Virus record (IMG/VR): IMGVR_UViG_2706794678_000013 | Length of the DNA: 15,183 nt | Source of the DNA: a virus | Taxonomy: Duplodnaviria > Heunggongvirae > Uroviricota > Caudoviricetes | Reading direction: 5' to 3' (one strand) | Shown here: positions 1,237 through 15,183 of the stretch, piece by piece | Numbering within the stretch: position 1 is the first letter of the stretch | Layout of the letters: every line of letters starts with the position of its first letter | Notes under the pieces: generated by a model | Seen by the model: only the letters and a program-made list of their open reading frames with translations | Told to the model about the DNA's origin: nothing | Databases searched by the model: none | Translations under genes and position numbers: made by a program

Positions 1237-1237
1237 A

Positions 1238-1453: not shown

Positions 1454-1552
1454 CGCATCACCTCTGGCAGGCGCCAATGTTAGACTTAAATTGACGCCCG
1501 ATGTTGATTATTAATAATCAGCTATGAAGTTTTAATTTGAATACAATGCAAT

Positions 1553-1967: not shown

Positions 1968-1981
1968 TTGTCATATCTCAT
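1787..1981 (-). CDS. ralR: RalR (Lar) restriction-alleviation / type I toxin, almost entirely masked; only start region MRYD visible; lower coordinate inferred from 64-aa length
   Basis: Visible minus-strand start ATGAGATATGAC (MRYD) at 1981 preceded by in-frame ATG at 1993 (MRKIMRYD); location directly downstream of recT as in Rac. 3' end not visible. Confidence 0.4.
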
Positions 1982-2036
1982 AATTTTTCTCATAAAAATA
2001 TTTCAAGTTGGCGGTGCATTACACCGCCAGGCTGAA

Positions 2037-2846
2037 TTATTCCTCTGAATTATCGATTACACTGTATTCCCCGGTTAATACAGAGGAATCTGCAGGATCG
2101 ATTGTCAGTGGTTCCTTTTCATCCATTGATACTGCACGCTGGATCTCAATTGATACGGGCAGATATTTGAACAGGCGACGAATAGCCGTTTTCTTTGCCA
2201 TTTCTTCCCAGTGAGTTACCCACGGCCCGTTATTACCAGCTTTACTCTGGCTGCGCACCAGCTCAATCTGTTTGCGCGTCATAACTTCAAACTGAGTACC
2301 TCCGTCTTTCAGTCTTGCGACAGCATAGACGTGGGTAACAGGGGCATCTTCGTTTTCTCCTGGGCGGTGTATTAACTTTTCATCAAGGCCAAATTCGAAA
2401 TTAAACTCGTCACCTTCACGGACAACACGGGCTGACAGGCTGGCGATTTGACCTGAACGGCGAGCCAGATCAATCATGCCGCGATAGCCAATGATTAGCT
2501 GAACGTTTTTTTTACCGCTCTTTTCGTTTTTATTACCAAAAGGCAGTAAATATGCATGACCGAGGGCGCTACCGGGCTCAAGTCCGAGCTGTGAACACTG
2601 TACGATTGCACTGACAAAACTCATAGTGTCACAGTTTCCTAACGCCGGAACTTTACGAATTTCTGTGGTGGCGATACGGATCATACGTTCAGCCGTCATA
2701 TGGCGTGGAAGAGCTGCTGCCAGTTGCTCTTTCATTGATGGCTGGTTAATAAAACTAATCACGTCGTTATTTTTAATTGCTGCTGGTGCACGGTTTCCCT
2801 GAGTTTTTTGCAGATCGGCTTTTGCGATTGGTGGTTGCTTAGTCAT
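2037..2846 (-). CDS. recT: RecT single-strand annealing recombinase, 269 aa
   Basis: Minus ORF; sequence from [28 protein letters not shown] matches remembered Rac RecT; start ATG at 2846 overlaps recE stop by 8 nt; upstream in-frame ATG at 2903 rejected. Confidence 0.9.
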
Positions 2847-5439
2847 TTGCATATTCCTTAGCCCAGCGGGGCAGTGATAACGTCTTAATAGCTGGCCATT
2901 CATCGGTATTGAGGCAGTCAGCCAGGGTTCGCAGATTGCGGTGATATTCCAGCTGACCTGCCAGTTTTGCTTCTTCGCCCATCATGAAAATTTCAACCGG
3001 ATAACGTCCGCATTCAATAGTTGTGCTGGCAACCAGAAAAACGAAAGTTGGCTGCACTCCAAACTGTGCTTCATAACCGTCACTGTAGAATGCATCCTGA
3101 ACGTGATAGCGGTAGTCGTAATAAGCGGTTTTGAATCGTTGAATATCCGCCGTAGTTTTCACGTCCATGATCCAGTGAAATTCAGGGATAATTTTGTCCG
3201 GACGGCACCGACACAAAATTGCTGTTTCAGGATCTTCCCAGTAAATTGATGATTCAGCGTGTCCGGCGCTTTCAACAAGCCATTGCCCCAGCGGCAAAGC
3301 CATAACGCTCTGATACATGAGTTCAATTTTCCGGCCTTCTTCGGCAGTGATAACCGTTTTTCCTGTGCTTGCGCATTCCCTCAGAAACGCTTTCTCTTCT
3401 TCTTTTCCGGAGTTTGTCCGGCGGTTAAATTCAGGTGCTACGATAAAGCGGTTACTGAATTCTTCCGGCTCAAGTACCCGGCAGTGGAAAGCGGTTCCTA
3501 AATCGAGCGTTTTTGTCTTTGTGGTGTCCACGGGGGCATTTTTACGCCACAAATACAGTGCCGGAGTATCAGCAATGTCATCGAGCTGAGACTTACTGAC
3601 ACCGGGACCCGCGTGGTAATTCTCATTCGAAATTCCGTAATAAATACCTGGCTCTATGTCTTCTACGATTACGGGATCTGCGACTTCGCCAGTTTCATCA
3701 CTGCAATCGCGATGCGGATCGCTGCCAGCATTCTCATTGTGCGGATGTTCAGCGCCTTCCATTTCCTCCGGATCATTTTCCTTAGCTTCAACCTGACTCT
3801 CTTCATCGAATGTTTCCTGGTATGTTGCGTCGCCCATCACCGCACCACAGTCAGGGCAGTTATCCCCGCCAGTCTGGCCGCAGGCATTGCAGGCTATTTC
3901 CGGTTCCTGTTGCACTACTGGCTCAGGTTGATTCATATCCGGGCTGGTTTTTTCCGTTTCTGGCTGGTTCTGGTACACACAATCGCGAGTCTGGATCCCC
4001 TTTACCCATTTCGGATCGTTCGGGTCGCTAATTCCGTCAACAAATTCACCACGTGATGCAGCAAGCAATTTATCGGCATCGACAGGATTTTTTGATGGAA
4101 TGTTTTTCCGGGCTTCATGGAGTTCTGCCCGCAGTTCCTGATATTTCGCATCAACAGAATTTACCTGTGACTGAGCATCCAGCGGCTGCGTGTCCTGATG
4201 ATGTTCAGTTGCGTCCGGTTCCATTGTTTCAGCCTCTCCCTGTTCAACTGCCGTTGTTCCAGATGGTTGCGGTTTTTCTTCATCATCCTGTTTTCCTTCT
4301 TCTGTTACTCGCTGCGGCATCGGGGCAGAGGAGCGACCGCAGGCAATATCCACGATTTCCGGATCAGGGTTGGCATGATCGGTTTCAGTCAGTACTTTGT
4401 TCAGATATTCAGTGACGTGCGCGGGGATGACCTCGATCCCAATTGGTGCTTCTTTTACGGACGCAACCACGATGGCGCGGGAATAATCCAGCCCGCCAGG
4501 CATGGTGATGAATTTGTCGCGGAAAACAGAAAAGGGCGGTTTATTTTCAGCGATAATTTCCTCAATGCGTTTAGCGTGTGCCGGATGAAGGTTATAGATG
4601 TCCAGATCCATTGAACGGGCCAGTACGCCAGTGGCTACGTCCCGCGCCAGTGACGTCAGATCGTGTACGAAACCTTCGCCGCGATCGGTGAGGTTTCCGC
4701 CGCCAGCATTAGCACCGGAAGCCGTGCGAGTGATGTGTGAAACACGATTACCCTTCATCCACTCTTTTGTCAGCAGTCCTCGATCGGTGTAGTCAGCGTT
4801 CAGGTATGCTTCGAAAAAAGCAGTTATCAGTCCCAGGTTTGAATTACCAGGATTAGGGAAAACTTTGTCAGTGTCACGAACCAGTTTGTGGAGTTCGCGA
4901 ATTTCCAGCGGGTCGAGCAGGCTGGTTTTGTGGGAAACAGCCAGGGCAGTAACAGCCGGTAGTTCTTCAGCCCGAGCAATGTGTAATGCCTGGAGTCCGT
5001 CGCGTGAAACGTGCGTTACCGGTTTTTCGCTGCCGTGTTGAGCAAGCCAACGAATGGGCAGTTCCTGGCCAGAAATTGGGAGTAGCATATTCTCCTCAAT
5101 CTCAGTCATGTCTTCGCCGTTGACGTTGGTATTGCCTTGATAGTGAGCGTTGTCTGGTGCTGCTCCCGGTTTTAGTTCCCATGTCATGGAGTCTTTGCTG
5201 AGTTGATAGCGTTCACTCCAGGTAAAATCGATCTCACCTTCAGCGGGCAGGTCATTAACGACAGGAAAATTCGTGGCAACAGCTTTAAAATAGCTGCTCA
5301 GTTTTTTACCTGACTTAACGANNNNNNNNNNNNNNNNNNNNNNNNNNNNNNNNNNNNNNNNNNNNNNNNNNNNNNNNNNNNNNNNNNNNNNNNNNNNNNN
5401 NNNNNNNNNNNNNNNNNNNNNNNNNNNNNNNNNNNNNNN
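2839..5439 (-). CDS. recE: RecE exonuclease VIII; 5' end (about 39 codons) lies inside the N-run, start coordinate inferred from 866-aa length
   Basis: Minus ORF with no stop between 2839 and the N-run at 5322; visible sequence ...[61 protein letters not shown] matches remembered RecE; C-terminal exonuclease domain, internal Cys cluster [16 protein letters not shown]. Track ORF start at 5187 is only the first internal Met. Confidence 0.85.
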
Positions 5440-5580
5440 NNNNNNNNNNNNNNNNNNNNNNNNNNNNNNNNNNNNNNNNNNNNNNNNNNNNNNNNNNNNN
5501 NNNNNNNNNNNNNNNNNNNNNNNNNNNNNNNNNNNNNNNNNNNNNNNNNNNNNNNNNNNNNNNNNNNNNNNNNNNNNNNN
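5322..5580. other. Run of 259 N (unresolved or masked bases)
   Basis: Direct observation; hides recE start, the racC-recE intergenic region and racC stop. Confidence 1.
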
Positions 5581-5827
5581 TTAGAGTTGCCAGAAATTCG
5601 GCTTTTTTTTCTGCGGGCAGATTCTTTCCGATATGCACCAGGCACATTTTTTTGACACCTTCATCAAGTGTTTTTACGTTGCCTGATGGACCATCGATAT
5701 CAACCACAGTGAATGGGGTTTCTTTATTTTCTGTTTTAATTACGTAGCCAATGCGCTTTCCTTCCAGATTCACCTCGTGAACAATGTCATCGGTAGTTAC
5801 AACAGTGGCTTCATAATTGGTAATCAT
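5552..5827 (-). CDS. racC: RacC, small prophage protein (about 91 aa); 3' end inside N-run, lower coordinate inferred
   Basis: Minus ORF from ATG at 5827 (MITNYEATVVTTDDIVHEVNLEGKRIGYVIKTENKETPF...) with AAGGAGA Shine-Dalgarno 5-6 nt upstream; matches remembered RacC. Confidence 0.75.
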
Positions 5828-5901
5828 GTTTTTCTCCTTAATTAAGGTTGAGCGAATACCTGCCATTTCTGGCATAAATTCAGTTTCGAATAGTCAATTA
5901 A

Positions 5902-6072
5902 TTAAAGTTCATGTGCCATCTGGTCTTTTTCGGCACAAGCTTCACTGCAATATTTTCTCGGTTCGTCTTTTGATAAAATCCCGTGCATGAAGTGAAGCAT
6001 TCTTTCAATAGCTTTGCTTTCTTCAACGTCTTTTTTGCAAAGGTGGTAAGCACATTTTATTTTCTTAGTCAT
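5902..6072 (-). CDS. ydaE: YdaE-like small Cys/His-rich (putative zinc-binding) protein, 56 aa; not in the supplied ORF track (below length cut-off)
   Basis: Read by hand on minus strand: [56 protein letters not shown], stop TAA at 5902-5904; start ATG overlaps kilR stop (ATGA). Confidence 0.7.
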   Translation of the reverse strand: MTKKIKCAYHLCKKDVEESKAIERMLHFMHGILSKDEPRKYCSEACAEKDQMAHEL

Positions 6073-6293
6073 CACCATGACTCCGCCTTTACAGGTAAAC
6101 CATCACGACCGAGGAAGACTTTAATCATGCGGTCAGTAATGCATGTTTTTGTGGTCAGGTTACGAATATATAGTTTTCGCTTTTTAATATTGTTTGCCGA
6201 GGCAATATATGTCCGGCCTTCATGAAGAACATAATCGCCAGGAGTCACACACTGACGTGGTATTTCATCAGTTCCGAAGTGATGTGCAATCAT
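6072..6293 (-). CDS. kilR: KilR (YdaD) cell-division inhibitor / killing protein, 73 aa
   Basis: Minus ORF; [73 protein letters not shown] matches remembered KilR; start at 6293 with GGAGA RBS (the upstream ATG at 6305 sits inside the RBS). Confidence 0.8.
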
Positions 6294-6465
6294 AATTATC
6301 TCCATTTTTACAAATGAACTTTGTTGATGCGGTGCCTGGTGCCTCCAGGTGACTGCAACCAGTTAACAATTACAGTCGGCTTTCCCACCCAAACCAATAA
6401 GGACTAACATGACTTTTAACTGTGCCACGTGCGCTTAGCCGCATTCACCGCATCACAAAATTCAC

Positions 6466-6516
6466 TTTAAAAAGGGCGGACATCAGCCGAACTTCAAGAA
6501 AAAAACTGATGCCGCC
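6466..6516 (-). terminator. Possible leftward intrinsic terminator or RNA hairpin in the kilR-sieB intergenic region
   Basis: Inverted repeat GGCGGACATCAG (6475-6486) / CTGATGCCGCC (6506-6516) with an 18-nt loop; on the minus strand the stem is followed by CTTTTTAAA (6466-6474). Seen by eye only. Confidence 0.25.
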
Positions 6517-6734
6517 AGGACTACACACAGCAATGTCGTTATTTACAACCGGAGGCGCACTCCCACCATTTAAATTTAACAGACAAGACCGACTCTTTAT
6601 GGATATCGGAAATGCGCCTTCGTGTTGTGCCCGGTTTTATTTCACCACCTCCGGGCTTCGGTGGTCTCGGCTATACCCCTACAGCGAGAGCTTGTGTTAA
6701 CATTTCAATACCCTTACAGTTGAGAGTTATTGAT

Positions 6735-7223
6735 ATGTTGGATGTATTTACTCCATTGTTGAAACTTTTTGCTAACGAGCCACTCGAAATACTTATGTAT
6801 ACGATTATCATTTTTGGTCTCACTCTCTGGCTGATACCGAAAGAGTTTACTGTCGCATTCAATGCTTATACTGAAATACCTTGGCTCTTTCAGATTATCG
6901 TTTTTGCCTTTTCTTTCGTGGTCGCCATTTCCTTCTCAAGATTGCGAGCACATATTCAAAAGCATTATTCATTACTACCAGAGCAACGAGTATTGCTTCG
7001 TTTATCTGAGAAAGAAATCGCTGTATTTAAAGATTTCCTTAAAACAGGAAATCTTATTATCACTTCTCCTTGCCGTAACCCGGTTATGAAAAAATTAGAA
7101 CGGAAGGGCATCATTCAACATCAGAGTGATAGCGCAAACTGTTCTTATTATCTCGTCACCGAAAAATACTCCCATTTTATGAAGTTATTCTGGAACAGCA
7201 GGAGTAGACGTTTTAATCGTTAG
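6735..7223 (+). CDS. sieB: SieB superinfection-exclusion (abortive infection) membrane protein, 162 aa
   Basis: Plus ORF from ATG 6735 with GAGAG RBS 8 nt upstream; MLDVFTPLLKLFANEPLEILMYTIIIFGLTLWLIPKEF... hydrophobic N-terminus; matches remembered Rac SieB. The 41-codon upstream extension from 6612 is Pro/Gly-rich and lacks an RBS. Confidence 0.85.
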   Translation: MLDVFTPLLKLFANEPLEILMYTIIIFGLTLWLIPKEFTVAFNAYTEIPWLFQIIVFAFSFVVAISFSRLRAHIQKHYSLLPEQRVLLRLSEKEIAVFKDFLKTGNLIITSPCRNPVMKKLERKGIIQHQSDSANCSYYLVTEKYSHFMKLFWNSRSRRFNR

Positions 7224-7375
7224 CTTACTGTGTGCTTCTCCAACCATCGGCGCGCACCAGTTTCGGTTTTAAATGTTTTGCTTTTGGTATACGTCATGGC
7301 AGTGAACGTTCCATCCTGGTTGGGGAACACGCCGCACACCAGGGATTCGTTGTTGCCGAGGTCGATTTTTTGCAT
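7220..7375 (-). CDS. ydaF: YdaF-like small protein, 51 aa; not in supplied ORF track
   Basis: Read by hand on minus strand: MQKIDLGNNESLVCGVFPNQDGTFTAMTYTKSKTFKTETGARRWLEKHTVS, stop TAA at 7220-7222; convergent 4-nt overlap with sieB stop. Confidence 0.65.
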   Translation of the reverse strand: MQKIDLGNNESLVCGVFPNQDGTFTAMTYTKSKTFKTETGARRWLEKHTVS

Positions 7376-7385
7376 TTTGCGAATC

Positions 7386-7520
7386 TCACATCTTGTTGCT
7401 GTGTATAGCGACTTCTGCCTGCCAGAGATCCCAGTCGTTGCTGCGTAAAGCCTGCACAGCCTGGTTGTAAGTGATACCGCAACAATCCATCAAATACTGA
7501 ACTACTTCGTAATGCACCAT
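7386..7520 (-). CDS. ydaG: YdaG-like small protein, 44 aa
   Basis: Minus ORF; internal start at 7520 (MVHYEVVQYLMDCCGITYNQAVQALRSNDWDLWQAEVAIHSNKM) preceded by GGGGAGAG RBS; first gene of the leftward operon. Confidence 0.7.
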   Translation of the reverse strand: MVHYEVVQYLMDCCGITYNQAVQALRSNDWDLWQAEVAIHSNKM

Positions 7521-7684
7521 CTTATCTCTCCCCTTAACGCCGGGTGGCGGAACTGAAACCTGCTGCACTGCAAAATCTGAACCCTGCCGTCATGTTCATA
7601 CGCCTCGGGCTGGCTACTTAACCCCTGACCACTGCCTGGTAACTCGAAGTATTGCCCTGCGTTCTGTGGGGCGGGGTGGGTTGG

Positions 7685-7740
7685 TAGGTATATAATGTAC
7701 TTTGTGTTCATTGATGTAAAGTACTATAAGTACATTTTGT
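7685..7740 (-). promoter_or_regulatory. Putative leftward early promoter/operator region (OL/pL analogue) downstream of racR stop
   Basis: AT-rich block with ATGTAC / GTAC repeats (aatgtac 7694-7700, gtac 7721-7724, gtacat 7730-7735) and the inverted pair GTACTTT...AAAGTAC; minus-strand TTTACA (7720-7715) with TTATAT/CATTAT -10-like hexamers 15-19 nt downstream. Same ATGTAC motif recurs in the racR-ydaS intergenic region. Confidence 0.35.
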
Positions 7741-7810
7741 GTGTAAAAAAATGAGATGGGATAAAGTGAAGCACAAACCCGGAGGGGGACGCTACCGGAT
7801 TTATGCTGGT

Positions 7811-8230
7811 TTAAGAGGCTTTTTGTTTTTTCTTTCGTGCTAGCTCTTCGTAAATTGCATTGTACTTCTGTTTTTTCTCCTCAAGAGTTTTTAAAAGTTC
7901 ATCTGTCTCACTGTCAGGGAGCTCGTCCAGAAGGTCAATGATGATTTTTTGTCTTGGATTTAACTCCTGATAGAAACGTACCTGTCCACTTTCTTCTGTA
8001 TCCTCTCCCAAAAGATAGGTTGGTGTTGTTCCAATGAGTGTTGCTAATTCCCTTAATTTCTCTCGGCGAGGAATTGTTTCGCCATTAAACCATTTGCTAA
8101 CCGCTTTTGGTGTTAATTTCATTCGACGGGCAATTTCTGCCTGCCTTCCATGTTGTTCATAACCAGCGTTTTCACAGGCTAGCGCAAGCCTACTGGCGAA
8201 CTCTTTACGCGCTTTATCTTCATGAACCAT
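7811..8230 (-). CDS. racR: RacR prophage repressor, HTH XRE-family (CI-like), 139 aa from ATG 8230 (alternative GTG start at 8248 gives 145 aa)
   Basis: Minus ORF; helix-turn-helix QAEIARRMKLTPKAVSKWFNGETIPRREKLRELATLIGTTPTYLLGED; divergently oriented to ydaS as expected for a repressor/cro pair. Track start at 8248 is a GTG codon. Confidence 0.8.
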   Translation of the reverse strand: MVHEDKARKEFASRLALACENAGYEQHGRQAEIARRMKLTPKAVSKWFNGETIPRREKLRELATLIGTTPTYLLGEDTEESGQVRFYQELNPRQKIIIDLLDELPDSETDELLKTLEEKKQKYNAIYEELARKKKQKAS

Positions 8231-8309
8231 AAGTTCAATGATATTCACTCTTGAATGTACTGTCAGTTCTGTTATAGCATGTACTCAAAGTTCACATTGT
8301 GAGGGTGAT
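8231..8309. promoter_or_regulatory. Divergent racR / ydaS promoter-operator region (OR analogue)
   Basis: 79-bp intergenic region between divergent start codons; repeated ATGTAC motif (8255-8260, 8279-8284), inverted repeat TTCAA(8234-8238)/TTGAA(8251-8255); plus-strand TTGAAT (8251-8256) -16 nt- TATAGC (8273-8278) as a candidate rightward promoter. Confidence 0.4.
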
Positions 8310-8564
8310 ATGAACCAGAAAACACTTGAAGATGTAATCAAAACTGTTCGCGTTTCTGTTGTGGCCGACGTTTGTGGTGTCAGCCAAAGAGCAATCTACA
8401 AATGGATGGATAACGGAAAATTGCCTCGCACAGAATATACCGGCGAAACAAATTACGCTGAAAAAATCGCTCATGCATCAAACGGATTATTTTCTGCTGA
8501 TGTAATTTTAACTATTGGCAGAAATAAAACTACTACGAAAAAGCTGATGGGAGTTGATTCATGA
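8310..8564 (+). CDS. ydaS: YdaS, Cro-like HTH DNA-binding protein, 84 aa
   Basis: Plus ORF from ATG 8310 with GAGGGTGA RBS; HTH VADVCGVSQRAIYKWMDNGKLP; stop overlaps ydaT start (ATGA). Confidence 0.8.
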   Translation: MNQKTLEDVIKTVRVSVVADVCGVSQRAIYKWMDNGKLPRTEYTGETNYAEKIAHASNGLFSADVILTIGRNKTTTKKLMGVDS

Positions 8565-8983
8565 AAATCAAGCATGAGCACATCGAGTCAGTGTTGTTAG
8601 CCCTGGCAGCCGAAAAAGGGCAGGCATGGGTAGCCAATGCCATTACTGAAGAATATCTGCGCCAGGGGGGCGGCGAATTGCCCCTGGTACCAGGCAAGGA
8701 CTGGAATAATCAGCAGAATATCTATCACCGTTGGTTGAAAGGTGAAACGAAAACGCAAAGAGAAAAAATTCAGAAGCTGATCCCAGCAATTCTGGCAATC
8801 CTTCCGCGCGAGCTGCGTCACCGACTCTGCATCTTCGATACCCTGGAACGCCGTGCATTACTGGCGGCGCAGGAAGCGTTAAGTACGGCAATTGATGCGC
8901 ATGATGATGCAGTCCAAGCCGTTTACCGGAAAGCGCATTTCAGCGGCGGCGGGTCTTCCGACGATTCTGTCATTGTTCATTAA
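8561..8983 (+). CDS. ydaT: YdaT (CII-like regulator, reported toxic on overexpression), 140 aa
   Basis: Plus ORF MKIKHEHIESVLLALAAEKGQAWVANAITEEYLRQGGGELPL...; translationally coupled to ydaS; matches remembered Rac YdaT. Confidence 0.85.
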   Translation: MKIKHEHIESVLLALAAEKGQAWVANAITEEYLRQGGGELPLVPGKDWNNQQNIYHRWLKGETKTQREKIQKLIPAILAILPRELRHRLCIFDTLERRALLAAQEALSTAIDAHDDAVQAVYRKAHFSGGGSSDDSVIVH

Positions 8984-8995
8984 GCAAAAGTTTCC

Positions 8996-9853
8996 ATGCT
9001 GTTTGTGCTTATTCTAAGCCACCGGGCAGCATCATACGGGGCAATTATGGCCGCATTACCATACATGCAACTGTACATAGCTGATTACCTGGCTGACACC
9101 ATGCATTTGTCAGCAGAGGAGCATGGTGCGTATTTGTTGCTGATGTTCAATTACTGGCAAACAGGAAAGCCAATACCTAAAAACAGGCTGGCAAAAATTG
9201 CCCGTCTGACTAACGAGCGATGGGCTGATGTTGAACCATCCTTGCAGGAGTTTTTTTGCGATAACGGCGAGGAATGGGTGCATCTTCGGATTGAGGAAGA
9301 TCTGGCATCAGTCAGGGAAAAATTAACCAAAAAATCAGCCGCAGGAAAAGCATCTGTTCAGGCCAGAAGAAGCAGAAAGGAAGCAGATGTTCAAACAAAA
9401 CAAGAGAGAAATTTAACAGGTGTTCAAACAGATGTTGAAGTGGTGTTTGAACATGATGTCAACACAAAGGCAACTAATAAAGATACAGATAAAGATCTAA
9501 AAACAGATCCCCCCCTAAATCCCCCCCGGGGGAATCGAGGTGTCAAAAAGTTTGACCCTCTGGATATTGCTTTGCCGAACTGGATTTCTGTCTCGCTTTG
9601 GCGTGAGTGGGTTGAATTTCGCCAGGCATTGCGAAAACCGATTCGAACGGAGCAGGGCGCTAACGGGGCGATACGGGAGCTGGAAAAATTCCGCCAGCAG
9701 GGTTTTTCACCTGAGCAGGTGATTCGACACAGCATCGCCAATGAATACCAGGGCTTGTTCGCGCCGAAAGGTGTTCGACCTGAGACGTTACTCCGACAGG
9801 TTAACACCGTCTCGTTACCGGATAGTGCGATCCCGCCAGGCTTCAGGGGGTAA
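8996..9853 (+). CDS. ydaU: YdaU (DUF1376) replication-initiation-associated protein, 285 aa
   Basis: Plus ORF from ATG 8996 (alternative ATG 9047); conserved N-terminal LPYMQLYIADYLADTMHLSAEEHGAYLLLMFNYW; immediately upstream of the DnaC-like gene. Confidence 0.85.
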   Translation: MLFVLILSHRAASYGAIMAALPYMQLYIADYLADTMHLSAEEHGAYLLLMFNYWQTGKPIPKNRLAKIARLTNERWADVEPSLQEFFCDNGEEWVHLRIEEDLASVREKLTKKSAAGKASVQARRSRKEADVQTKQERNLTGVQTDVEVVFEHDVNTKATNKDTDKDLKTDPPLNPPRGNRGVKKFDPLDIALPNWISVSLWREWVEFRQALRKPIRTEQGANGAIRELEKFRQQGFSPEQVIRHSIANEYQGLFAPKGVRPETLLRQVNTVSLPDSAIPPGFRG

Positions 9854-10148
9854 CTGACCATGAAAAATATTGCGACAGGCGACGTTCTTGAACGTATCCG
9901 CAGACTGGCCCCGTCACATGTAACCGCGCCATTCAAGACGGTAGCGGAGTGGCGCGAGTGGCAACTTTCCGAAGGCCAGAAACGTTGTGAGGAGATCAAC
10001 CGTCAGAATCGTCAGTTGCGGGTGGAAAAAATTCTGAATCGCTCTGGCATCCAGCCATTGCACCGCAAATGCTCGTTTTCGAATTACCAGGTGCAGAACG
10101 AAGCGCAGCGATACGCGTTGAGTCAGGCGAAATCCATCGCTGATGAAC
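9590..10148 (+). repeat. Repeat unit A: ydaU 3' end plus ydaV 5' end; diverged duplicate of 10691-11249 (offset 1101 bp)
   Basis: Collinear nucleotide and protein similarity to the second copy; about 6 differences in the first 60 nt of ydaV counted by eye. Confidence 0.8.
9860..10148 (+). CDS. ydaV: YdaV DnaC-like helicase loader, copy 1, 5' portion only (about 96 codons) before N-run
   Basis: ATG 9860, 6 nt after ydaU stop; MKNIATGDVLERIRRLAPSHVTAPFKTVAEWREWQLSEGQKRCEEINRQNRQLRVEKILNRSGIQPLHRKCSFSNYQVQNEAQRYALSQAKSIADE then Ns. Confidence 0.6.
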
Positions 10149-10398
10149 NNNNNNNNNNNNNNNNNNNNNNNNNNNNNNNNNNNNNNNNNNNNNNNNNNNN
10201 NNNNNNNNNNNNNNNNNNNNNNNNNNNNNNNNNNNNNNNNNNNNNNNNNNNNNNNNNNNNNNNNNNNNNNNNNNNNNNNNNNNNNNNNNNNNNNNNNNNN
10301 NNNNNNNNNNNNNNNNNNNNNNNNNNNNNNNNNNNNNNNNNNNNNNNNNNNNNNNNNNNNNNNNNNNNNNNNNNNNNNNNNNNNNNNNNNNNNNNNNN
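10149..10398. other. Run of 250 N (unresolved or masked bases) hiding the junction between ydaV copy 1 and a second ydaU-like segment
   Basis: Direct observation. Confidence 1.
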
Positions 10399-10954
10399 GC
10401 GTTAATTCAGGTTGGATGGCTGGTCGAAAATGACGGAGGGCTTTCTCTACCTAACTTTGAACGTCATAACGGAAAAAGCTCTAAAAAAAACGGGCGGTTA
10501 CAAACGAGCGAGTAACAAAAATACGCGAACTGAAACGAAAAGGTAACGCTGCCAGCGTTACACAAACGGATCAAAAAGCGTTACCAGAGGAAGAGGAAGA
10601 GGAAGATCTAAATACTGATCTCCCCCTCGCCAAAAACGAGCGTCTAAAAAATTCGAGCCGGAGGCTATTGAGCTGCCCGATTGGTTGCCGGAAACACTCT
10701 GGCATGAGTGGGTCCGGTTCAGACAGGCATTGCGAAAACCGATTCGAACGGAGCAGGGCGCTAACGGGGCGATACGGGAACTGGAAAAATTCCGTCAGCA
10801 GGGTTTTACACCTGAGCAGGTGATTCGACACAGCATCGCCAATGAATACCAGGGCCTGTTCGCGCCGAAAGGTGTTCGGCCTGAGACGTTGCTCCGACAG
10901 GTTAACACCGTCTCGTTGCCGGACAGTGCGATCCCGCCAGGCTTCAGGGGGTAA
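10399..10954 (+). pseudogene. Second, diverged ydaU-like 3' segment, 5'-truncated and interrupted by two apparent 1-nt frameshifts in poly-A runs
   Basis: Three consecutive frames must be joined to follow the ydaU-like protein: ...ENDGGLSLPNFERHNGKSSKK (stop 10513-10515) / RAVTNERVTKIRELKRKGNAASVTQTDQKALPEEEEEEDLNTDLPLAKNER / KKFEPEAIELPDWLPETLWHEWVRFRQALRKPIRTEQGANGAIRELEKFRQQGFTPEQVIRHSIANEYQGLFAPKGVRPETLLRQVNTVSLPDSAIPPGFRG; shifts coincide with A8 (10483-10490) and A6 (10646-10651). Confidence 0.5.
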
Positions 10955-11256
10955 CGGACCATGAAAAATATTGCGACAGGCGGCGTTCTGGAACGCATCC
11001 GCCGACTGACCCCGCCACATGTAACCGCCCCATTCAGAACGGTAGCGGAGTGGCGCGAGTGGCAACTTGCTGAAGGCCAGAAACGTAGCGAGGAGATCAA
11101 CCGCCTGAATCGCCAGTTGCGGGTGGAAAAAATTCTGAATCGCTCAGGCATCCAGCCGTTGCACCGTAAATGCTCGTTTGCGAATTACCAGGTGCAGAAC
11201 GACGGCCAGCGATACGCGTTAAGCCAGGCGAAATCCATCGCCGATGAACTGATGAC
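10691..11256 (+). repeat. Repeat unit B: second copy of ydaU 3' end plus ydaV 5' end; its last 225 bp (11032-11256) are identical to 11511-11735
   Basis: Direct comparison of the sequence on both sides of the N-run 11257-11510. Confidence 0.85.
10961..11256 (+). CDS. ydaV: YdaV DnaC-like helicase loader, copy 2, 5' portion before N-run (may be the same gene as 11511-12186 if the N-run is a scaffolding gap)
   Basis: ATG 10961; MKNIATGGVLERIRRLTPPHVTAPFRTVAEWREWQLAEGQKRSEEINRLNRQLRVEKILNRSGIQPLHRKCSFANYQVQNDGQRYALSQAKSIADELM then Ns. Confidence 0.55.
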
Positions 11257-11510
11257 NNNNNNNNNNNNNNNNNNNNNNNNNNNNNNNNNNNNNNNNNNNN
11301 NNNNNNNNNNNNNNNNNNNNNNNNNNNNNNNNNNNNNNNNNNNNNNNNNNNNNNNNNNNNNNNNNNNNNNNNNNNNNNNNNNNNNNNNNNNNNNNNNNNN
11401 NNNNNNNNNNNNNNNNNNNNNNNNNNNNNNNNNNNNNNNNNNNNNNNNNNNNNNNNNNNNNNNNNNNNNNNNNNNNNNNNNNNNNNNNNNNNNNNNNNNN
11501 NNNNNNNNNN
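11257..11510. other. Run of 254 N flanked by identical 225-bp sequence on both sides
   Basis: Direct observation. Confidence 1.
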
Positions 11511-12186
11511 ATTCAGAACGGTAGCGGAGTGGCGCGAGTGGCAACTTGCTGAAGGCCAGAAACGTAGCGAGGAGATCAACCGCCTGAATCGCCAGTTGCG
11601 GGTGGAAAAAATTCTGAATCGCTCAGGCATCCAGCCGTTGCACCGTAAATGCTCGTTTGCGAATTACCAGGTGCAGAACGACGGCCAGCGATACGCGTTA
11701 AGCCAGGCGAAATCCATCGCCGATGAACTGATGACCGGGTGTACAAATTTTGCGTTCAGCGGAAAACCTGGTACCGGGAAGAATCACTTAGCGGCAGCTA
11801 TCGGGAATCGCCTGCTGAAAGACGGTCAGACAGTGATTGTGGTTACCGTGGCTGATGTTATGAGTGCCCTGCACGCCAGCTATGACGATGGGCAGTCAGG
11901 CGAAAAATTTTTGCGGGAACTATGCGAAGTGGATCTGCTGGTTCTTGATGAAATTGGCATTCAGCGCGAGACGAAAAACGAGCAGGTGGTGCTGCACCAG
12001 ATTGTTGATCGCCGGACAGCGTCGATGCGCAGCGTGGGGATGCTGACAAACCTGAACTATGAGGTGATGAAAACATTGCTCGGCGAGCGGGTGATGGATC
12101 GCATGGTCATGAACGGCGGGCGCTGGGTGAATTTTAACTGGGAGAGCTGGCGTCCGAATGTTAGCCATTCGAGGGTTGTTAAGTAG
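11511..12186 (+). CDS. ydaV: YdaV DnaC-like AAA+ helicase loader, 3' portion from about codon 25 to stop (Walker A and B present)
   Basis: Frame FRTVAEWREWQ... continuing through Walker A GKPGTGKNHLAAAIG and Walker B LLVLDEIG to stop TAG 12184-12186; no start codon visible because sequence begins at N-run. Confidence 0.75.
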
Positions 12187-12200
12187 TTTCAGGAGGATTT

Positions 12201-12623
12201 ATGGCGAAACCTTTTACTCCCGAACAGCGGGAAGAACTGAAGACGCGAATTGTGGAACTCGTGCATCAGGACGGTCGGGTCACGATTCGGCAGTTGTCAG
12301 ATGAAACAGGTATCAGTCGTGCGTCTGTCGGTCGCTTATGCATAGAACTGGTCGCAAGTGGTGATGTATATAATTCTGGCTACGGCTTATTCCCGTCTGA
12401 ACAGGCTCGCAAGGACTGGCAAAGCGCCCGCAAAAAACTCTCGAGAGTAAAGGTGAGGAAACCGGTTGTTGTTGATCCGGACCTTATCTGGTCATTACCT
12501 GACGGAGAAATACGCCGCTACGACAGGCGCCTGAATATAATCTGTCGCGAGTGCCGGAAGAGCGAAGCTATGCAGCGTGTACTGGCTTTCTATCAGGGTA
12601 ATTTTCAGGAGGCGATACTGTGA
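12201..12623 (+). CDS. Ren-like protein (homologue of phage lambda Ren, winged-helix N-terminus), 140 aa
   Basis: ATG 12201 with AGGAGG RBS; C-terminal ICRECRKSEAMQRVLAFY resembles lambda Ren ...KECRQSAAMKRVLAVY as I recall it; position directly after the helicase-loader gene matches lambda ren. Confidence 0.7.
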   Translation: MAKPFTPEQREELKTRIVELVHQDGRVTIRQLSDETGISRASVGRLCIELVASGDVYNSGYGLFPSEQARKDWQSARKKLSRVKVRKPVVVDPDLIWSLPDGEIRRYDRRLNIICRECRKSEAMQRVLAFYQGNFQEAIL

Positions 12624-13037
12624 ATGAAATTAGCTATCAGGCTTCAATTACCGCTGGCATTCGCATCAAAGGAGAGGAGCATGGAAATAAAACCAGAAGA
12701 TGAGTTAAGCAATATCGTTTTATTTCCGGTAAAAGAGGATGACCCTCGTAATCAGGTTAATTTTCTTTATGAGCCATCGGAAAGACCATATTGCCATCAC
12801 GCCTCTGTACGGGTTGACGAAAAAGAGCGTCAGGTCCGCTGTAAAATCTGCGGTGCGGTTGTGGAGCCGTTTGACTGGATGCTCTCTGTGGCAAAAAGAG
12901 AAACCAGACTGGCAGATGATGTAAGGCTATTGCGCCAGGAGGAACAGGAAAGGCGGAGAAATATAGAAAAGCTGATACAGATTGAGCGTAACGCGAAAGC
13001 GCGGATACGCAGGGCGACAAAATCCAGAACTGAATAA
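12624..13037 (+). CDS. Hypothetical protein with Cys/His cluster (CHH...CKIC, zinc-ribbon-like) and basic coiled-coil tail; 137 aa (alternative start 12681 gives 118 aa)
   Basis: ATG 12624 directly follows the Ren-like stop with AGGAGG 11 nt upstream; internal ATG 12681 also has an AGGAG RBS. No family recognised. Confidence 0.6.
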   Translation: MKLAIRLQLPLAFASKERSMEIKPEDELSNIVLFPVKEDDPRNQVNFLYEPSERPYCHHASVRVDEKERQVRCKICGAVVEPFDWMLSVAKRETRLADDVRLLRQEEQERRRNIEKLIQIERNAKARIRRATKSRTE

Positions 13038-13184
13038 TTAAATTTAGCACTGTTAAAAATTTAATCCTTAACCGGAGGGATTTCTGCACCCTCAAATCAT
13101 CAGGAGACCACCCGAAAGGGCGGGGAGCAGTCACACATCTGTTTCCGATAGCCCCGTTCTAATGCTACACTCTTTGATATTTTT

Positions 13185-13871
13185 ATGACCCCAATAAACA
13201 TATTTATGACAGTTGCTGATTTCAAACGGCCCAAATTGGAGCTCCCAAACGGGGCAAACAAACTACTACTGCACTCTTGCTGTGCTCCATGTTCCGGTGA
13301 GGTGATGGAGGCGCTTCAGGCCTCGGGAATCGACTACACCATCTTTTTCTACAACCCGAACATTCATCCTCAGAAAGAGTATTTAATTCGTAAGGATGAG
13401 AATATTCGCTTTGCTGAACAACACGGCGTGCCGTTTATTGATGCTGATTACGACACAGACAACTGGTTTGAACGAGCCAAAGGAATGGAATGGGAGCCCG
13501 AACGAGGGATCCGTTGCACCATGTGTTTTGACATGCGTTTTGAGCGGACAGCGCTGTACGCCGCTGAAAATGGTTTCAGTGTGATCAGCAGTTCACTGGG
13601 CATTTCACGCTGGAAAAATATGCAGCAGGTTAACGACTGTGGGCGGCGAGCCGTCGCGCATTATCCGGGCATGGTGTACTGGGATTATAACTGGCGCAAG
13701 CAGGGCGGCTCGTCCCGTATGATTGAAATCAGCAAGCGCGAAAAATTCTATCAGCAGGAATATTGTGGCTGTGTGTATTCTCTGCGCGATACCAATCTAC
13801 ACCGCAAATCTCAGGGACGCCCTCTTATCAAAATTGGTCAACTCCACTACGGTAAAGAAGAGAAGGAGTGA
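13185..13871 (+). CDS. queH: QueH-family (DUF208) epoxyqueuosine reductase homologue, 228 aa
   Basis: Motifs read directly: [11 protein letters not shown] near N-terminus, [22 protein letters not shown], and EYCGCVYS near C-terminus, collinear with QueH/DUF208 proteins as I recall them. Start may be 13185 or 13206; no clear RBS for either. Confidence 0.8.
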
Positions 13872-13892
13872 TTTTATGGGGCACCTTTCTGA

Positions 13893-13922
13893 TTGATTTC
13901 ATATTGGCGAGGTAAGTAGAAT
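13893..13922 (+). promoter_or_regulatory. Putative sigma70 promoter of the hok-like mRNA
   Basis: TTGATT (13893-13898), 18-nt spacer, TAGAAT (13917-13922); predicted +1 near 13929 where the GC-rich tac-like 5' element GCGGGTGCTTGAGGC begins. Confidence 0.4.
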
Positions 13923-13984
13923 GACTGCGGGTGCTTGAGGCTATCTGCTTCAGGCATGAACACCAAAAGGCAGATAGAGAAAAG

Positions 13985-14050
13985 CCCCAGTTAACATTAC
14001 GCGTCCGGCAAGACGCTTAACATTAATCTGAGGCCAATTTCATGCTTTGC
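13985..14050 (-). ncRNA. sok: Predicted Sok-like antisense RNA (antitoxin of the hok module); coordinates approximate
   Basis: By analogy with hok/sok of plasmid R1: minus-strand promoter-like TTGCCT (complement of 14081-14086), 17-nt spacer, TAACCT (complement of 14057-14062), giving an antisense transcript complementary to the mok leader and start. Not directly demonstrable from sequence. Confidence 0.3.
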
Positions 14051-14254
14051 ACATGTAGGTTAGCCTCTTACATGCCGAAAGGCAAGGAGAAGCAGGCTAT
14101 GAAGCAGCAAAAGGCGATGTTAATCGCCCTGATCGTCATCTGTTTAACCGTCATAGTGACGGCACTGGTAACGAGGAAAGACCTCTGTGAGGTACGAATC
14201 CGAACCGGCCAGACGGAGGTCGCTGTCTTCGTAGACTACGAATCCAGGAAGTAA
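14042..14254 (+). CDS. mok: Mok-like in-frame upstream reading frame of the hok module, 70 aa
   Basis: ATG 14042 in frame with hok; N-terminal extension MLCTCRLASYMPKGKEKQA resembles remembered MokC (MLNTCRVPLTDRKVKEKRA...). Confidence 0.5.
   Translation: MLCTCRLASYMPKGKEKQAMKQQKAMLIALIVICLTVIVTALVTRKDLCEVRIRTGQTEVAVFVDYESRK
14099..14254 (+). CDS. hok: Hok/Gef-family type I toxin (HokD/RelF-like), 51 aa single-TM peptide
   Basis: MKQQKAMLIALIVICLTVIVTALVTRKDLCEVRIRTGQTEVAVFVDYESRK; AAGGAG RBS 9 nt upstream; near-identical over the first 45 aa to remembered HokD and HokC, divergent C-terminus. Confidence 0.85.
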   Translation: MKQQKAMLIALIVICLTVIVTALVTRKDLCEVRIRTGQTEVAVFVDYESRK

Positions 14255-14331
14255 GAGTGACCGGGCGGGGAGCTGATCCCATCCCCGCCCACCTCTGATG
14301 TGTCAGGCATCCTCAACGCACCCGCACTTAA

Positions 14332-14376
14332 CCCGCCCATCGCTGTGATCTCTCAGCGTTTCGGCGGGTTTTTTGT
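14332..14376 (+). terminator. Rho-independent terminator at the 3' end of the hok mRNA
   Basis: CCCGCC (14332-14337) ... GGCGGG (14363-14368) stem followed by TTTTTTG; preceded by a second GC hairpin (14263-14290) and the fbi-like element 14311-14325. Confidence 0.55.
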
Positions 14377-14394
14377 TGTTTATTTCCGGTGAAT

Positions 14395-14422
14395 TTGATT
14401 CGCGCACCTTCGCAGATAGAAT
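14395..14422 (+). promoter_or_regulatory. Putative sigma70 promoter for the downstream nin-like genes
   Basis: TTGATT (14395-14400), 16-nt spacer, TAGAAT (14417-14422); same hexamers as the hok promoter. Confidence 0.35.
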
Positions 14423-14503
14423 CGACTCACTTAAGTAGCGCGCAGGGAGAAGAGGGATGGACCCCGAACAGGGGAGAGCTATTTATCTGGAAGGATTCTG
14501 AAG

Positions 14504-14791
14504 ATGAAAATCGAAGAATTGCGTGAAATTTTTAGTGAAAATGGCCTCTATGCTGTGCGCGTTGAGAATGGAGCGATTGTCAGCCATTGCCGCATTAGAT
14601 GTTTGCAATCTCAACAAAGGAAGAGCGGTGCTGTGTTATTTTATTTTTGTAATGGACTTCTGACGGACGGTTTTATTTTGCGTGAGGACGAATTTGTCAC
14701 ATCATTACGGGTTTTGAAAGAGATTGGTTTTAAGGCTGGTTTTCTGCTTTTGCTGAAGAATAAACTCATCTACAATCTTGAGCAGGATTGA
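14504..14791 (+). CDS. Hypothetical protein, 95 aa
   Basis: ATG 14504 with GGAAGGA RBS 8 nt upstream; no family recognised. Confidence 0.55.
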   Translation: MKIEELREIFSENGLYAVRVENGAIVSHCRIRCLQSQQRKSGAVLFYFCNGLLTDGFILREDEFVTSLRVLKEIGFKAGFLLLLKNKLIYNLEQD

Positions 14792-14829
14792 ACTCCTGCT
14801 GTGTAACACCGTGCCACCGGAGAAAGCCG

Positions 14830-15183
14830 ATGGCACATATACAACTGGTCAAACAAACCTCTTCCGGATTACTTCTCCCGGCGACGCCGGAGAGTTGCGA
14901 TTTTCTGCATCAAATCAAAATAGGTGAGTGGATACACGCAGACTTTAAGCGTGTGTGTAACTACGCATTCCACAAGCGTTTTTTCAAACTCCTGCAACTG
15001 GGTTTCGATTACTGGACTCCGGTCGGTGGGGCGATCACGCCTCGCGAACGAAAACTGGTGTCCGGTTTCGTTGATTACCTGTGTGAATCAGTAGGCCGGG
15101 AACATACGCCAGCTCTGAGCGAAGCCGCAGAGCAATTGAGGTGTACTGGCAATAGCGGACACTACCATTTGTTCTTTTTTTAA
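14830..15183 (+). CDS. Lambdoid nin-region protein (possibly DUF1367-like), 117 aa as read; stop codon is the last three bases of the window
   Basis: ATG 14830 with GGAGAAAG RBS; MAHIQLVKQTSSGLLLPATPESCDFLHQIKIGEWIHADFKRVCNYAFHKRFFKLLQLGFDYWTP... resembles prophage proteins I recall; family name uncertain. Track ORF start at 14788 is a TTG codon. Confidence 0.55.
   Translation: MAHIQLVKQTSSGLLLPATPESCDFLHQIKIGEWIHADFKRVCNYAFHKRFFKLLQLGFDYWTPVGGAITPRERKLVSGFVDYLCESVGREHTPALSEAAEQLRCTGNSGHYHLFFF

What the first reader, a model, noticed from the sequence alone, without database searches (positions are those of the whole stretch)
13893..14376. Complete hok/mok/sok-type type I toxin module with 5'-3' complementary mRNA ends
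Beyond the Hok peptide itself, the sequence shows the whole regulatory architecture known from R1 hok/sok: an in-frame Mok-like extension, a GC-rich 5' element GCGGGTGCTTGAGGC (13927-13941) whose complement reappears near the 3' end as CCTCAACGCACCCGC (14311-14325), consistent with tac/fbi fold-back pairing, a terminator, and a plausible antisense promoter over the mok start. The toxin C-terminus (VFVDYESRK) differs from the HokD/HokC tails I remember. The intact structure suggests the locus is functional rather than decayed.
Basis: partly seen in the sequence, partly recalled or inferred. Interest (0 to 1): 0.55.

Follow-up and report, generated by a model that had tools for sequence, protein, structure and literature searches.

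The report
Prophage hok/mok/sok toxin-antitoxin module
This is an intact copy of the well-known hok/sok RNA-controlled membrane-toxin cassette, carried by a lambda-like prophage and almost identical to the tested hokW-sokW system of E. coli O157 phages, so it is real but ordinary.

Summary

- The 51-aa Hok ORF is at 14099-14254 (Pfam HOK_GEF, 81 bits).
- The in-frame 70-aa Mok ORF starts at 14042.
- A hok promoter (TTGATT-18-TAGAAT) lies at 13893-13922.
- The 5' element pairs with 14311-14323. Pairing probability is about 1.0 in the full-length fold, as 6+6 bp with one bulged C.
- A terminator hairpin sits at 14330-14373.
- An antisense sok gene lies at about 13980-14050 on the minus strand. 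Its -10 and -35 hexamers are identical to those of the tested sokW.

Rfam's hok-leader model matches end to end (117 bits). In 30 homologues from five named genera plus unclassified genomes, the 5'-3' pairing is always predicted. It shows compensatory changes, and one of these is coupled to a second change in the alternative 5' hairpin.

The locus is 91% identical to hokW-sokW of phage 933W/Sp5 (one Hok residue differs). It is 100% identical to loci annotated hokD in two E. coli genomes. The "unusual" tail VFVDYES(R/E)(E/K) is a common allele.

Allele-specific features are a 23-nt insertion in the terminator loop and a divergent Sok recognition tail. Verdict: already known, low interest.

The parts
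13893..13922 (+). hok/mok mRNA promoter, TTGATT (-35), 18-nt spacer, TAGAAT (-10)
   Evidence: Promoter scan, 9 of 12 matches. The -10 is conserved in homologues (TAGAAT, TATAAT, TACAAT). Homology to other loci begins just upstream of the -10, so the -35 comes from the local flank.
13929..14373 (+). Full-length hok mRNA, about 445 nt (inferred +1 at G13929, 3' end in the U-run)
   Evidence: The Rfam model starts at 13929. Fold: MFE -189.6 kcal/mol, z -8.4. The ends are inferred, not mapped.
13929..13940 (+). tac (translational activator element), GGGUGCUUGAGG
   Evidence: Pairs with fbi at p 0.97-1.0. Pairs alternatively with 13947-13957 (metastable hairpin) and with ucb. Position 13932 covaries with both partners.
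13947..13957 (+). 3' arm of the metastable 5' hairpin (pairs with 13931-13941 in the nascent or 3'-truncated RNA)
   Evidence: It is the MFE of the truncated RNA. 96% of cells are paired in 30 homologues against 29-55% for slid controls, with U-A to C-G in 12 sequences.
13982..13990 (+). ucb / anti-SD (AAGCCCCAG). It sequesters the mok SD in the closed form and pairs with tac in the open form.
   Evidence: Closed-form pairs 13984-13990 with 14028-14034. The tac/ucb stem is in the Rfam consensus and is 99.5% paired but invariant in 30 homologues.
13980..14050 (-). sok antisense RNA gene, about 71 nt: 15-nt single-stranded 5' tail, long hairpin, UUUU
   Evidence: Mapped from the sokW annotation of phage 933W through the alignment. 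Fold -28.6 kcal/mol, z -4.7. No expression data for this allele.
14057..14081 (-). sok promoter: -35 TTGCCT (14081..14076), 17-nt spacer, -10 TAACCT (14062..14057)
   Evidence: Read. Both hexamers are identical to 933W. The sokW 'pro-less' primer YO-421 alters three bases of this -10, and the mutant loses antitoxin activity (PMC8621323).
14030..14033 (+). mok Shine-Dalgarno GAGG, 8 nt before the mok ATG
   Evidence: Direct reading. Invariant in 30 homologues. Paired to ucb in the full-length fold.
14030..14067 (+). Sok target hairpin of the open form (mok SD/dcb stem GAGGC:GCCUC; loop CUUUGCA 14045-14051)
   Evidence: Rfam consensus structure. The outer 5 pairs are invariant. The inner stem is variable and poorly aligned, 71% paired.
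14042..14254 (+). mok ORF, 70 codons, in frame with hok and sharing its stop codon
   Evidence: ORF list and translation. MokW of 933W differs at 2 of the 19 leader residues.
14099..14254 (+). hok ORF, 51 codons plus stop; SD GGAG at 14086-14089
   Evidence: Pfam PF01848 HOK_GEF, 81.1 bits, E 4e-23. One residue (E50R) differs from HokW.
14263..14290 (+). GC-rich hairpin just after the stop codon; likely 3' end-protecting hairpin of the processed mRNA
   Evidence: 9-bp perfect stem. The role is inferred from the R1 study, where mutations in the last stem-loop of the truncated mRNA abolish toxicity (PMC9841398).
14311..14323 (+). fbi (fold-back inhibitory element), CCUCAA-C-GCACCC
   Evidence: Pairs with tac. 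Predicted in all 30 homologues. Compensatory A to G at 14320 in 11 sequences.
14330..14373 (+). Intrinsic terminator: 8-bp outer stem, inner 5-bp stem, U6. It carries an allele-specific insertion of about 23 nt in the loop (about 14338-14361).
   Evidence: Fold. Comparison with other alleles. The insertion allele occurs in 2 of 5426 complete E. coli genomes.

Best explanation
The region is a complete hok/mok/sok type I toxin-antitoxin module of the hokC/D/W subgroup. It is effectively an allele of hokW-sokW and sits in the early/nin region of a Rac- or lambda-like prophage, between queH and DUF1367.

**Proposed mechanism.** This is taken from the R1 paradigm. The sequence-readable steps were checked here; the biochemical steps are inferred.
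1. A constitutive promoter (13893-13922) makes an mRNA of about 445 nt.
2. While the mRNA is being made, the 5' tac element is held in a local metastable hairpin (13931-13957).
3. In the finished transcript, tac pairs with fbi (14311-14323). The ucb anti-SD (13984-13990) covers the mok SD, and the hok SD and start codon are buried. The RNA can then neither be translated nor bind Sok.
4. Slow 3' exonucleolytic trimming removes the terminator and fbi.
5. tac then switches to ucb, which frees the mok SD in a target hairpin.
6. The unstable Sok RNA (13980-14050, minus strand) is made from TTGCCT-17-TAACCT. It pairs through its 5' tail, blocks mok translation and therefore hok translation, and triggers RNase III cleavage.
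7. When Sok disappears, Mok/Hok is translated and the 51-aa Hok peptide damages the inner membrane.

**Likely biological role, by analogy with hokW-sokW.** Helping lysis and phage release after prophage induction, and/or stabilising the prophage.
For: **Shown here**
- Hok matches Pfam HOK_GEF.
- The Rfam hok-leader model matches end to end at 117 bits, starting at the predicted +1 and ending at the hok AUG.
- tac/fbi pairs have p about 1.0.
- Forcing the open tac/ucb form costs 12.4 kcal/mol in the full-length RNA but only 1.9 kcal/mol after 3' truncation.
- All 30 homologues fold with 11-12 of their first 12 nt paired to the 3' element.
- The whole mapped structure is 84.5% paired, against 38-43% for slid controls. 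It has 34 pairs changed on both sides, against 12-17 for the controls.
- tac position 4 changes U to C together with both of its alternative partners.
- Sok folds as a tail plus hairpin plus U-run.
- The sok -10 and -35 are identical to sokW.
- The prophage context is clear.

**From the literature**
- hokW-sokW is 91% identical in DNA, with one Hok residue different.
- HokW is toxic. sokW RNA was detected by northern blot. Mutating the sokW -10 unleashes toxicity.
- Antitoxin action partly needs RNase III and Hfq.
- Deleting the locus halves Sp5 phage release (PMC8621323).
- The definitions of tac, fbi, ucb and dcb and the conformational switch come from PMC9841398.
Against: - There are no expression, processing or toxicity data for this allele.
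- The sok promoter is weak by consensus (4/6 and 3/6).
- Thermodynamic folding of the truncated RNA slightly prefers the closed form with the metastable hairpin (-144.3 vs -142.4 kcal/mol). The switch to the open form is therefore compatible with the prediction but not predicted outright.
- The tac/ucb stem and the SD/dcb stem are invariant, so covariation neither supports nor contradicts them.
- Chromosomal hokA, hokB and hokC loci were reported not to mediate post-segregational killing (cited in the bioRxiv survey).
- The insertion in the terminator loop could alter 3' processing.
Confidence: 0.9

Rival explanations
1. The module is structurally intact but physiologically silent. It would be carried along in the prophage and make little or no Hok under any natural condition, as was reported for several chromosomal hok loci.
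For: [quoted passage not shown]
- The sok and hok promoters are only moderate consensus matches.
- The rare 23-nt insertion in the terminator loop might impede the 3' trimming needed for activation.
Against: - Every regulatory element is intact and matches a functional homologue.
- There are no frameshifts, IS insertions or 5' truncations. Decayed copies do show these: L016 (fbi region replaced by unrelated sequence), L008 (5' leader replaced by unrelated sequence) and L007 (decayed 5' end).
- hokW-sokW in Sp5 is active on prophage induction (PMC8621323).
Confidence: 0.2
2. The module works as described, but its selected role is phage exclusion (abortive infection) or plain addiction to the prophage, rather than helping the prophage's own lysis.
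For: - hok/sok on a high-copy plasmid protected against T4, and type I systems can stabilise prophages (literature summarised).
- hok genes are about four-fold enriched in prophages.
- The same prophage arm carries SieB, a superinfection exclusion protein.
Against: - The survey found no enrichment of hok next to defence systems.
- The only direct test of the near-identical hokW-sokW showed earlier lysis and a two-fold higher phage yield.
- None of these roles excludes the others.
Confidence: 0.3
3. The 5'-3' complementarity is a chance inverted repeat, or simply part of terminator-proximal structure, with no regulatory meaning.
For: - A perfect 9-mer inverted repeat in about 570 nt is expected roughly 0.6 times by chance (my estimate).
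- The repeat finder lists 14 inverted pairs in the region.
Against: - The duplex strength was reached in only 3 of 2000 shuffles.
- The pairing is predicted in all 30 homologues.
- It is maintained by compensatory U-A to C-G, by G-C to A-U, and by G-U intermediates.
- The same tac position also covaries with its alternative partner.
Confidence: 0.02
4. The Rfam 'sok' hit on the + strand means the antitoxin RNA is encoded on the + strand at 13929-14104.
For: The family is named 'sok antitoxin' and the hit is on the + strand.
Against: - The model begins at the hok mRNA 5' end and ends at the hok AUG.
- In phage 933W the same model hits the strand opposite to the annotated sokW.
- The model therefore describes the hok leader, which is the Sok target, not Sok itself.
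Confidence: 0.02

Closest known systems
hokW-mokW-sokW of Stx phages 933W / Sakai prophage 5 (Sp5)
   Same: - About 91% DNA identity over the module.
- Identical tac, fbi, Sok hairpin and sok -10/-35.
- Hok differs by one residue (E50R) and the Mok leader by two.
- In-frame Mok, and a prophage location.
   Different: - The Sok 5' tail / target loop differs at 7 of 16 positions.
- The hairpin after the stop codon is longer.
- 933W diverges right after fbi and lacks this terminator.
- Different flanking genes: queH and DUF1367 here, against the far end of the 933W genome.
Chromosomal hokD (relF) / hokC (gef) of E. coli K-12
   Same: - Same Hok subfamily, 88-90% peptide identity.
- RefSeq annotates this exact locus as hokD.
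- In-frame Mok in the hokC/hokD-type proteins retrieved.
- The editable Tyr codon TAC-G is conserved.
   Different: - A hokD-type locus in an E. coli genome (L008) has unrelated sequence in place of the 5' leader with tac, sok and mok.
- A hokC-type locus (L016) has lost fbi to unrelated sequence.
- The window copy has all elements.
- Its tail is VFVDYESRK instead of VFTAYEPEE or VFTAYESE.
hok/mok/sok (parB) of plasmid R1 and related IncF plasmid loci
   Same: - Same architecture and folding pathway (metastable hairpin, tac/fbi, tac/ucb, SD/dcb, antisense Sok).
- The same Rfam leader model hits an R1-like IncF locus at 105 bits.
- The hok translation-initiation region is 87-91% identical over 43-47 nt.
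   Different: - The Hok peptide is only distantly similar; HokW/Hok identity is 44%.
- In the R1-like locus examined, the Mok-like ORF (DUF5431) is out of frame with hok and ends inside it. Here Mok is an N-terminally extended Hok.
- It is plasmid-borne with a proven post-segregational killing role.

Membership tests
[quoted passage not shown] | Small Hok/Gef peptide (about 50 aa) with an N-terminal hydrophobic helix and a conserved Cys | tested here: met
   PF01848 at 81.1 bits against a cut-off of 22. Sequence MKQQKAMLIALIVICLTVIVTALVTRKDLCEV... with Cys15 and Cys30.
[quoted passage not shown] | Overlapping upstream mok reading frame with its own SD, through which hok translation is coupled | tested here: met
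   70-codon ORF from ATG 14042, with GAGG 8 nt upstream. The translational coupling itself was not tested.
[quoted passage not shown] | Long-range tac/fbi pairing of the mRNA 5' and 3' ends | tested here: met
   Pair probabilities 0.97-1.0. Reached in 3 of 2000 shuffles. Present in 30 of 30 homologues with compensatory changes.
[quoted passage not shown] | Metastable 5' hairpin that sequesters tac during transcription | tested here: met
   11-bp hairpin 13931-13941/13947-13957. 96% paired in 30 homologues, with U-A to C-G in 12.
[quoted passage not shown] | Open-form leader structure (tac/ucb stem, mok SD/dcb target hairpin) | tested here: met
   Full-length match to Rfam RF01794 at 117 bits against a gathering score of 59. 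The pairs are 99.5% and 100% standard but invariant, so there is no covariation evidence. The open form lies 1.9 kcal/mol above the MFE after truncation.
[quoted passage not shown] | Cis-encoded antisense Sok RNA with its own promoter, overlapping the mok translation start | tested here: inconclusive
   The gene and promoter are present by sequence and identical in -10/-35 to the validated sokW. Transcription of this allele cannot be tested with these tools.
[quoted passage not shown] | 3' exonucleolytic processing that activates the mRNA; RNase III cleavage of the Sok-mRNA duplex | not testable with these tools
   Only the substrates are visible: the fbi plus terminator tail of about 50-60 nt, and the protective hairpin at 14263-14290.
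[quoted passage not shown] | Membrane toxicity of the peptide | not testable with these tools
   Inferred from HokW, which differs by one residue and is toxic and located in the inner membrane.

The most novel reading that the evidence does not exclude
The allele-specific features may be functional tuning rather than neutral drift. There are three candidates.

1. **Sok recognition tail.** It differs at 7-8 of 16 positions from the other hok/sok copies found in genomes that carry this allele, while the rest of Sok is nearly invariant. This could insulate co-resident modules from cross-repression.
2. **Terminator-loop insertion.** The rare 23-nt insertion could slow 3' trimming and delay activation.
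3. **Tyr47 context.** The 7-mer CUACGAA around Tyr47 equals the tRNA-Arg2 anticodon loop. It could make this Hok subgroup an efficient TadA A-to-I editing target, with Tyr47 recoded to Cys. Full toxicity would then depend on RNA editing.
Probability: 0.2. Interest if true: 0.35.

Novelty: already known. Interest (0 to 1): 0.1.

Why it matters
It matters little beyond correct annotation.

- The locus adds one more intact prophage-borne hok/sok copy to a family already catalogued in tens of thousands of genomes and enriched in prophages.
- It supports annotating mok and sok here. RefSeq lists only the hokD CDS.
- It flags that the Rfam 'sok' model reports the hok-leader strand, not the Sok strand.
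- The coupled covariation seen across Escherichia, Kluyvera, Citrobacter, Pantoea and Photorhabdus re-derives, from independent genomes, the conserved folding pathway described for the family.

Tried and rejected
- **Terminator scan.** It found nothing in 13700-14600. Folding shows this is a limit of the tool (loop of at most 8 nt), not absence of a terminator.
- **Promoter scan.** It did not list the sok promoter. I located it by reading the minus strand and by homology with sokW.
- **Long-range helix 14042-14054 / 14298-14310.** I first labelled it ucb/dcb. After reading the R1 definitions I reassigned ucb to 13982-13990 and dcb to 14063-14067. The long helix is only 59-61% paired in homologues, where the alignment is poor, so I do not claim it.
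- **Inverted repeat between the hok SD region and the terminator-loop insertion.** This is 14074-14090 against 14349-14365, 76% complementary. I rejected it as an extra anti-SD. The match is within chance expectation and partly lies in the terminator stem shared by all alleles.
- **Register shift in the MAFFT alignment.** The second half of fbi in Photorhabdus lacks the bulged C and was shifted by one column. This gave false 'unpaired' counts. Per-sequence duplex folding resolved it.
- **Second copy of the tac element.** A search of the window found only a 2-mismatch chance hit at 3467-3479.
- **tRNAs.** There are none in the window.
- **Window versus the FDAARGOS_944 prophage.** They are mosaic. 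Only 11511-15136 is 99.8% identical, so that record is not necessarily the source of the window.

Full report
**1. The observation**

They are not perfect complements. The pairing is GCGGGTGC/GCACCCGC plus TTGAGG/CCTCAA, with one bulged C at 14317.

The promoter scan finds TTGATT-18-TAGAAT at 13893-13922. That puts the likely +1 at G13929, so the RNA helix is 6+6 bp.

The ORF list gives a 70-codon ORF at 14042-14254. Its last 51 codons start at ATG 14099 and are Hok. Hok matches Pfam HOK_GEF at 81 bits.

Rfam has one hit in the whole window: RF01794, all 157 model positions, 117 bits, at 13929-14104 on the + strand.

**2. Folding**

The 446-nt RNA from 13929 to 14374 folds to -189.6 kcal/mol (z = -8.4). 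The MFE and centroid structures are identical.
- All 12 tac/fbi pairs have probability 0.97-1.0.
- GCCCCAG (13984-13990) covers the mok SD GAGG (14030-14033).
- The hok SD and AUG are paired with 14227-14245.
- A 9-bp hairpin follows the stop codon.
- A two-tier terminator hairpin (14330-14370) precedes the U6 run.

A tac/3'-end duplex this strong arose in 3 of 2000 dinucleotide shuffles. With the 5' end held fixed it arose in 17 of 2000.

Removing the 3' end makes the 5' end refold into an 11-bp local hairpin, 13931-13941 with 13947-13957. This corresponds to the metastable hairpin described for R1 (PMC9841398).

The open conformation (tac paired to ucb, as in the Rfam consensus) costs 12.4 kcal/mol in the full-length RNA. 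After truncation it costs only 1.9 kcal/mol. fbi therefore acts as a lock. Thermodynamics alone does not predict the switch to the open form.

**3. The antisense gene**

Phage 933W annotates sokW on the strand opposite to hokW. Through the pairwise alignment this maps to window 13980-14050, minus strand.

That 71-nt RNA folds into a 15-nt free 5' tail, a long hairpin and UUUU (-28.6 kcal/mol, z = -4.7).

Upstream on the minus strand lie TTGCCT, a 17-nt spacer, and TAACCT (14081 down to 14057). Both hexamers are identical to those of 933W. The match to consensus is weak, which is why the scan missed it.

In the hokW-sokW study, the 'pro-less' primer changes three bases of exactly this -10. The mutant becomes toxic, and sokW supplied in trans partly rescues it. 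sokW RNA was also seen on northern blots (PMC8621323).

The Rfam family is named 'sok' but models the hok leader. In 933W it hits the strand opposite to the annotated sokW.

**4. Relatives**

- The 484-nt region is 100% identical in two complete E. coli genomes, where the CDS is annotated hokD. It is 90-95% identical in the best match of 4410 further E. coli records.
- It is about 91% identical to hokW-mokW-sokW of 933W, VT2-Sakai and many other Stx phages.
- In FDAARGOS_944 it lies in a lambdoid prophage next to ybhA/modC, between queH and a hypothetical gene followed by DUF1367.
- The window itself carries an integrase, RecT, RecE, SieB, cI/Cro-like regulators, YdaT, DUF1376, DUF977 and QueH upstream.
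- Hok differs from HokW by one residue, E50R.
- The tails VFVDYESRE and VFVDYESEK are frequent in E. coli. The exact VFVDYESRK peptide was found in a Shigella flexneri protein.

**5. Covariation**

A scan of species-representative genomes returned 47 loci. Of these loci, 29 have both mRNA ends, 28 were aligned, and with the 933W locus and the window copy that makes 30 sequences in the alignment. They come from Escherichia species, Kluyvera, Citrobacter, Pantoea, Photorhabdus and two unclassified genomes.

- Every one folds with 11-12 of its first 12 nt paired to the 3' element.
- Mapped onto the alignment, the window's structure is 84.5% paired, against 38-43% when partners are slid by 1-3 columns. 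It has 34 pairs changed on both sides, against 12-17 for the slid controls.
- tac position 4 (13932) is U-A in 17 sequences and C-G in 11 when paired with fbi.
- The same position is U-A in 17 and C-G in 12 when paired with its metastable-hairpin partner.
- That position is bulged in the tac/ucb stem, which is invariant.
- The second half of the tac/fbi helix shows GAGG/CCUC, GAGA/UCUC, GAAG/CUUC and G-U intermediates.
- Decayed copies are recognisable by contrast. L008 (E. coli, hokD-type) has unrelated sequence in place of the 5' leader. L016 (E. coli, hokC-type) has unrelated sequence in place of fbi. L007 has a degenerate 5' end.

The window copy has none of these lesions.

**6. Mechanism and role**

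The best explanation is the R1 scheme applied to a prophage copy.
- The inert full-length mRNA is locked by tac/fbi.
- Slow 3' trimming removes the lock.
- The RNA refolds to an open form that can bind either ribosomes at mok or Sok.
- Sok-directed RNase III decay holds as long as Sok is made.
- Hok is produced once Sok is lost.

The parts visible in sequence were tested here. Processing, RNase III cleavage, translational coupling and toxicity are inferred from R1 and from hokW-sokW.

For hokW-sokW, prophage induction by mitomycin C removes sokW RNA, and HokW appears about an hour before the endolysin. Deleting the locus delays growth arrest and halves phage yield. I take this as the most likely role here. 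Prophage addiction and phage exclusion remain compatible alternatives.

**7. Differences from known systems**

- Against R1-type plasmid loci, Mok here is in frame with Hok. In an R1-like IncF locus the Mok-like ORF (DUF5431) is out of frame and ends inside hok.
- Against hokW, differences cluster in the Sok 5' tail and target loop: 7 of 16 nt, against 0 of 55 in the Sok hairpin and 1 of 31 in the promoter region.
- The hairpin after the stop codon is longer than in hokW.
- The terminator loop carries an insertion of about 23 nt, found in only 2 of 5426 complete E. coli genomes.

**8. Verdict**

The finding is real, correctly interpreted and complete, and it is a textbook system. The exact locus is already annotated in RefSeq, though only as hokD without mok or sok. 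A near-identical homologue has been characterised experimentally. Novelty: already known. Interest: low.

Noticed in passing
window 14338-14361 (within terminator 14330-14373): The terminator hairpin carries an insertion of about 23 nt in its loop, which forms its own small stem (CGCTG/CAGCG). Other alleles have a plain ACCCGC-TTCG-GCGGG hairpin. The segment 14296-14400 is complete in only 2 of 5426 complete E. coli genomes, and also in S. flexneri loci L003/L004 (with point differences). It could change 3' processing kinetics.
   Followed up: partly
window 14035-14050: Differences from 933W hokW, and from the other hok copies found in genomes that carry this allele (L006, L009, L011), pile up in the Sok 5' tail and target loop (7-8 of 16 nt). 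The Sok hairpin (0-2 of 55) and the sok promoter region (1-2 of 31) are almost unchanged. This pattern would be expected if co-resident modules are insulated from cross-talk.
   Followed up: partly
window 14236-14242 (Tyr47 codon 14237-14239): TACGAA is invariant in all 30 aligned homologues. TAC-G is the known TadA A-to-I editing motif that recodes this Tyr to Cys in hokC, hokD and hokE (PMC5630033). Here the 7-mer is CUACGAA, identical to the tRNA-Arg2 anticodon loop (from my own knowledge), whereas the hokD/hokC-type homologues aligned here (e.g. L005, L006, L009, L017-L023) have UUACGAA. The flanks form at most a 2-bp stem, and in the full-length fold A14238 is a bulge, so editing efficiency cannot be predicted.
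   Followed up: partly
window 14395-14422: A second promoter-like site uses the same two hexamers as the hok promoter (TTGATT-16-TAGAAT). It lies just after the terminator and upstream of a 95-aa ORF with no Pfam match (14504-14791). The adjacent sequence (ACTTAAGTAGCGCGCAGGGA) is also conserved downstream of a hokD-type locus in an E. coli genome (L008).
   Followed up: no
window 13929-14104; L002 2524-2698: Rfam RF01794 is named 'sok antitoxin' but matches the hok mRNA sense strand from +1 to the hok AUG. In 933W the hit lies opposite to the annotated sokW. Automated annotation from this model would place 'sok' on the wrong strand and make it too long.
   Followed up: yes
window 13185-13871: A full-length QueH (epoxyqueuosine reductase, Pfam 220 bits) is encoded in the prophage immediately upstream of hok. 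It is a phage-borne tRNA-modification gene.
   Followed up: no
window 1-13000: The window is the left arm of a Rac/lambdoid prophage: integrase, RecT, RecE, SieB, cI/Cro-like regulators, YdaT, DUF1376 and DUF977. It is mosaic relative to the FDAARGOS_944 prophage, at 99.8% identity only over 11511-15136 and 85-98% in patches elsewhere.
   Followed up: partly
L002 84-172: An Rfam sRNA-Xcc1 match (69 bits) lies about 2.4 kb upstream of hokW in phage 933W. It is not in the window.
   Followed up: no
L015, L020, L049: Near-identical E. coli-type hok fragments sit on very short contigs labelled Acinetobacter idrijaensis, Xanthomonas pisi and a chicken-gut MAG. These are probably assembly contamination rather than true hosts.
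   Followed up: no
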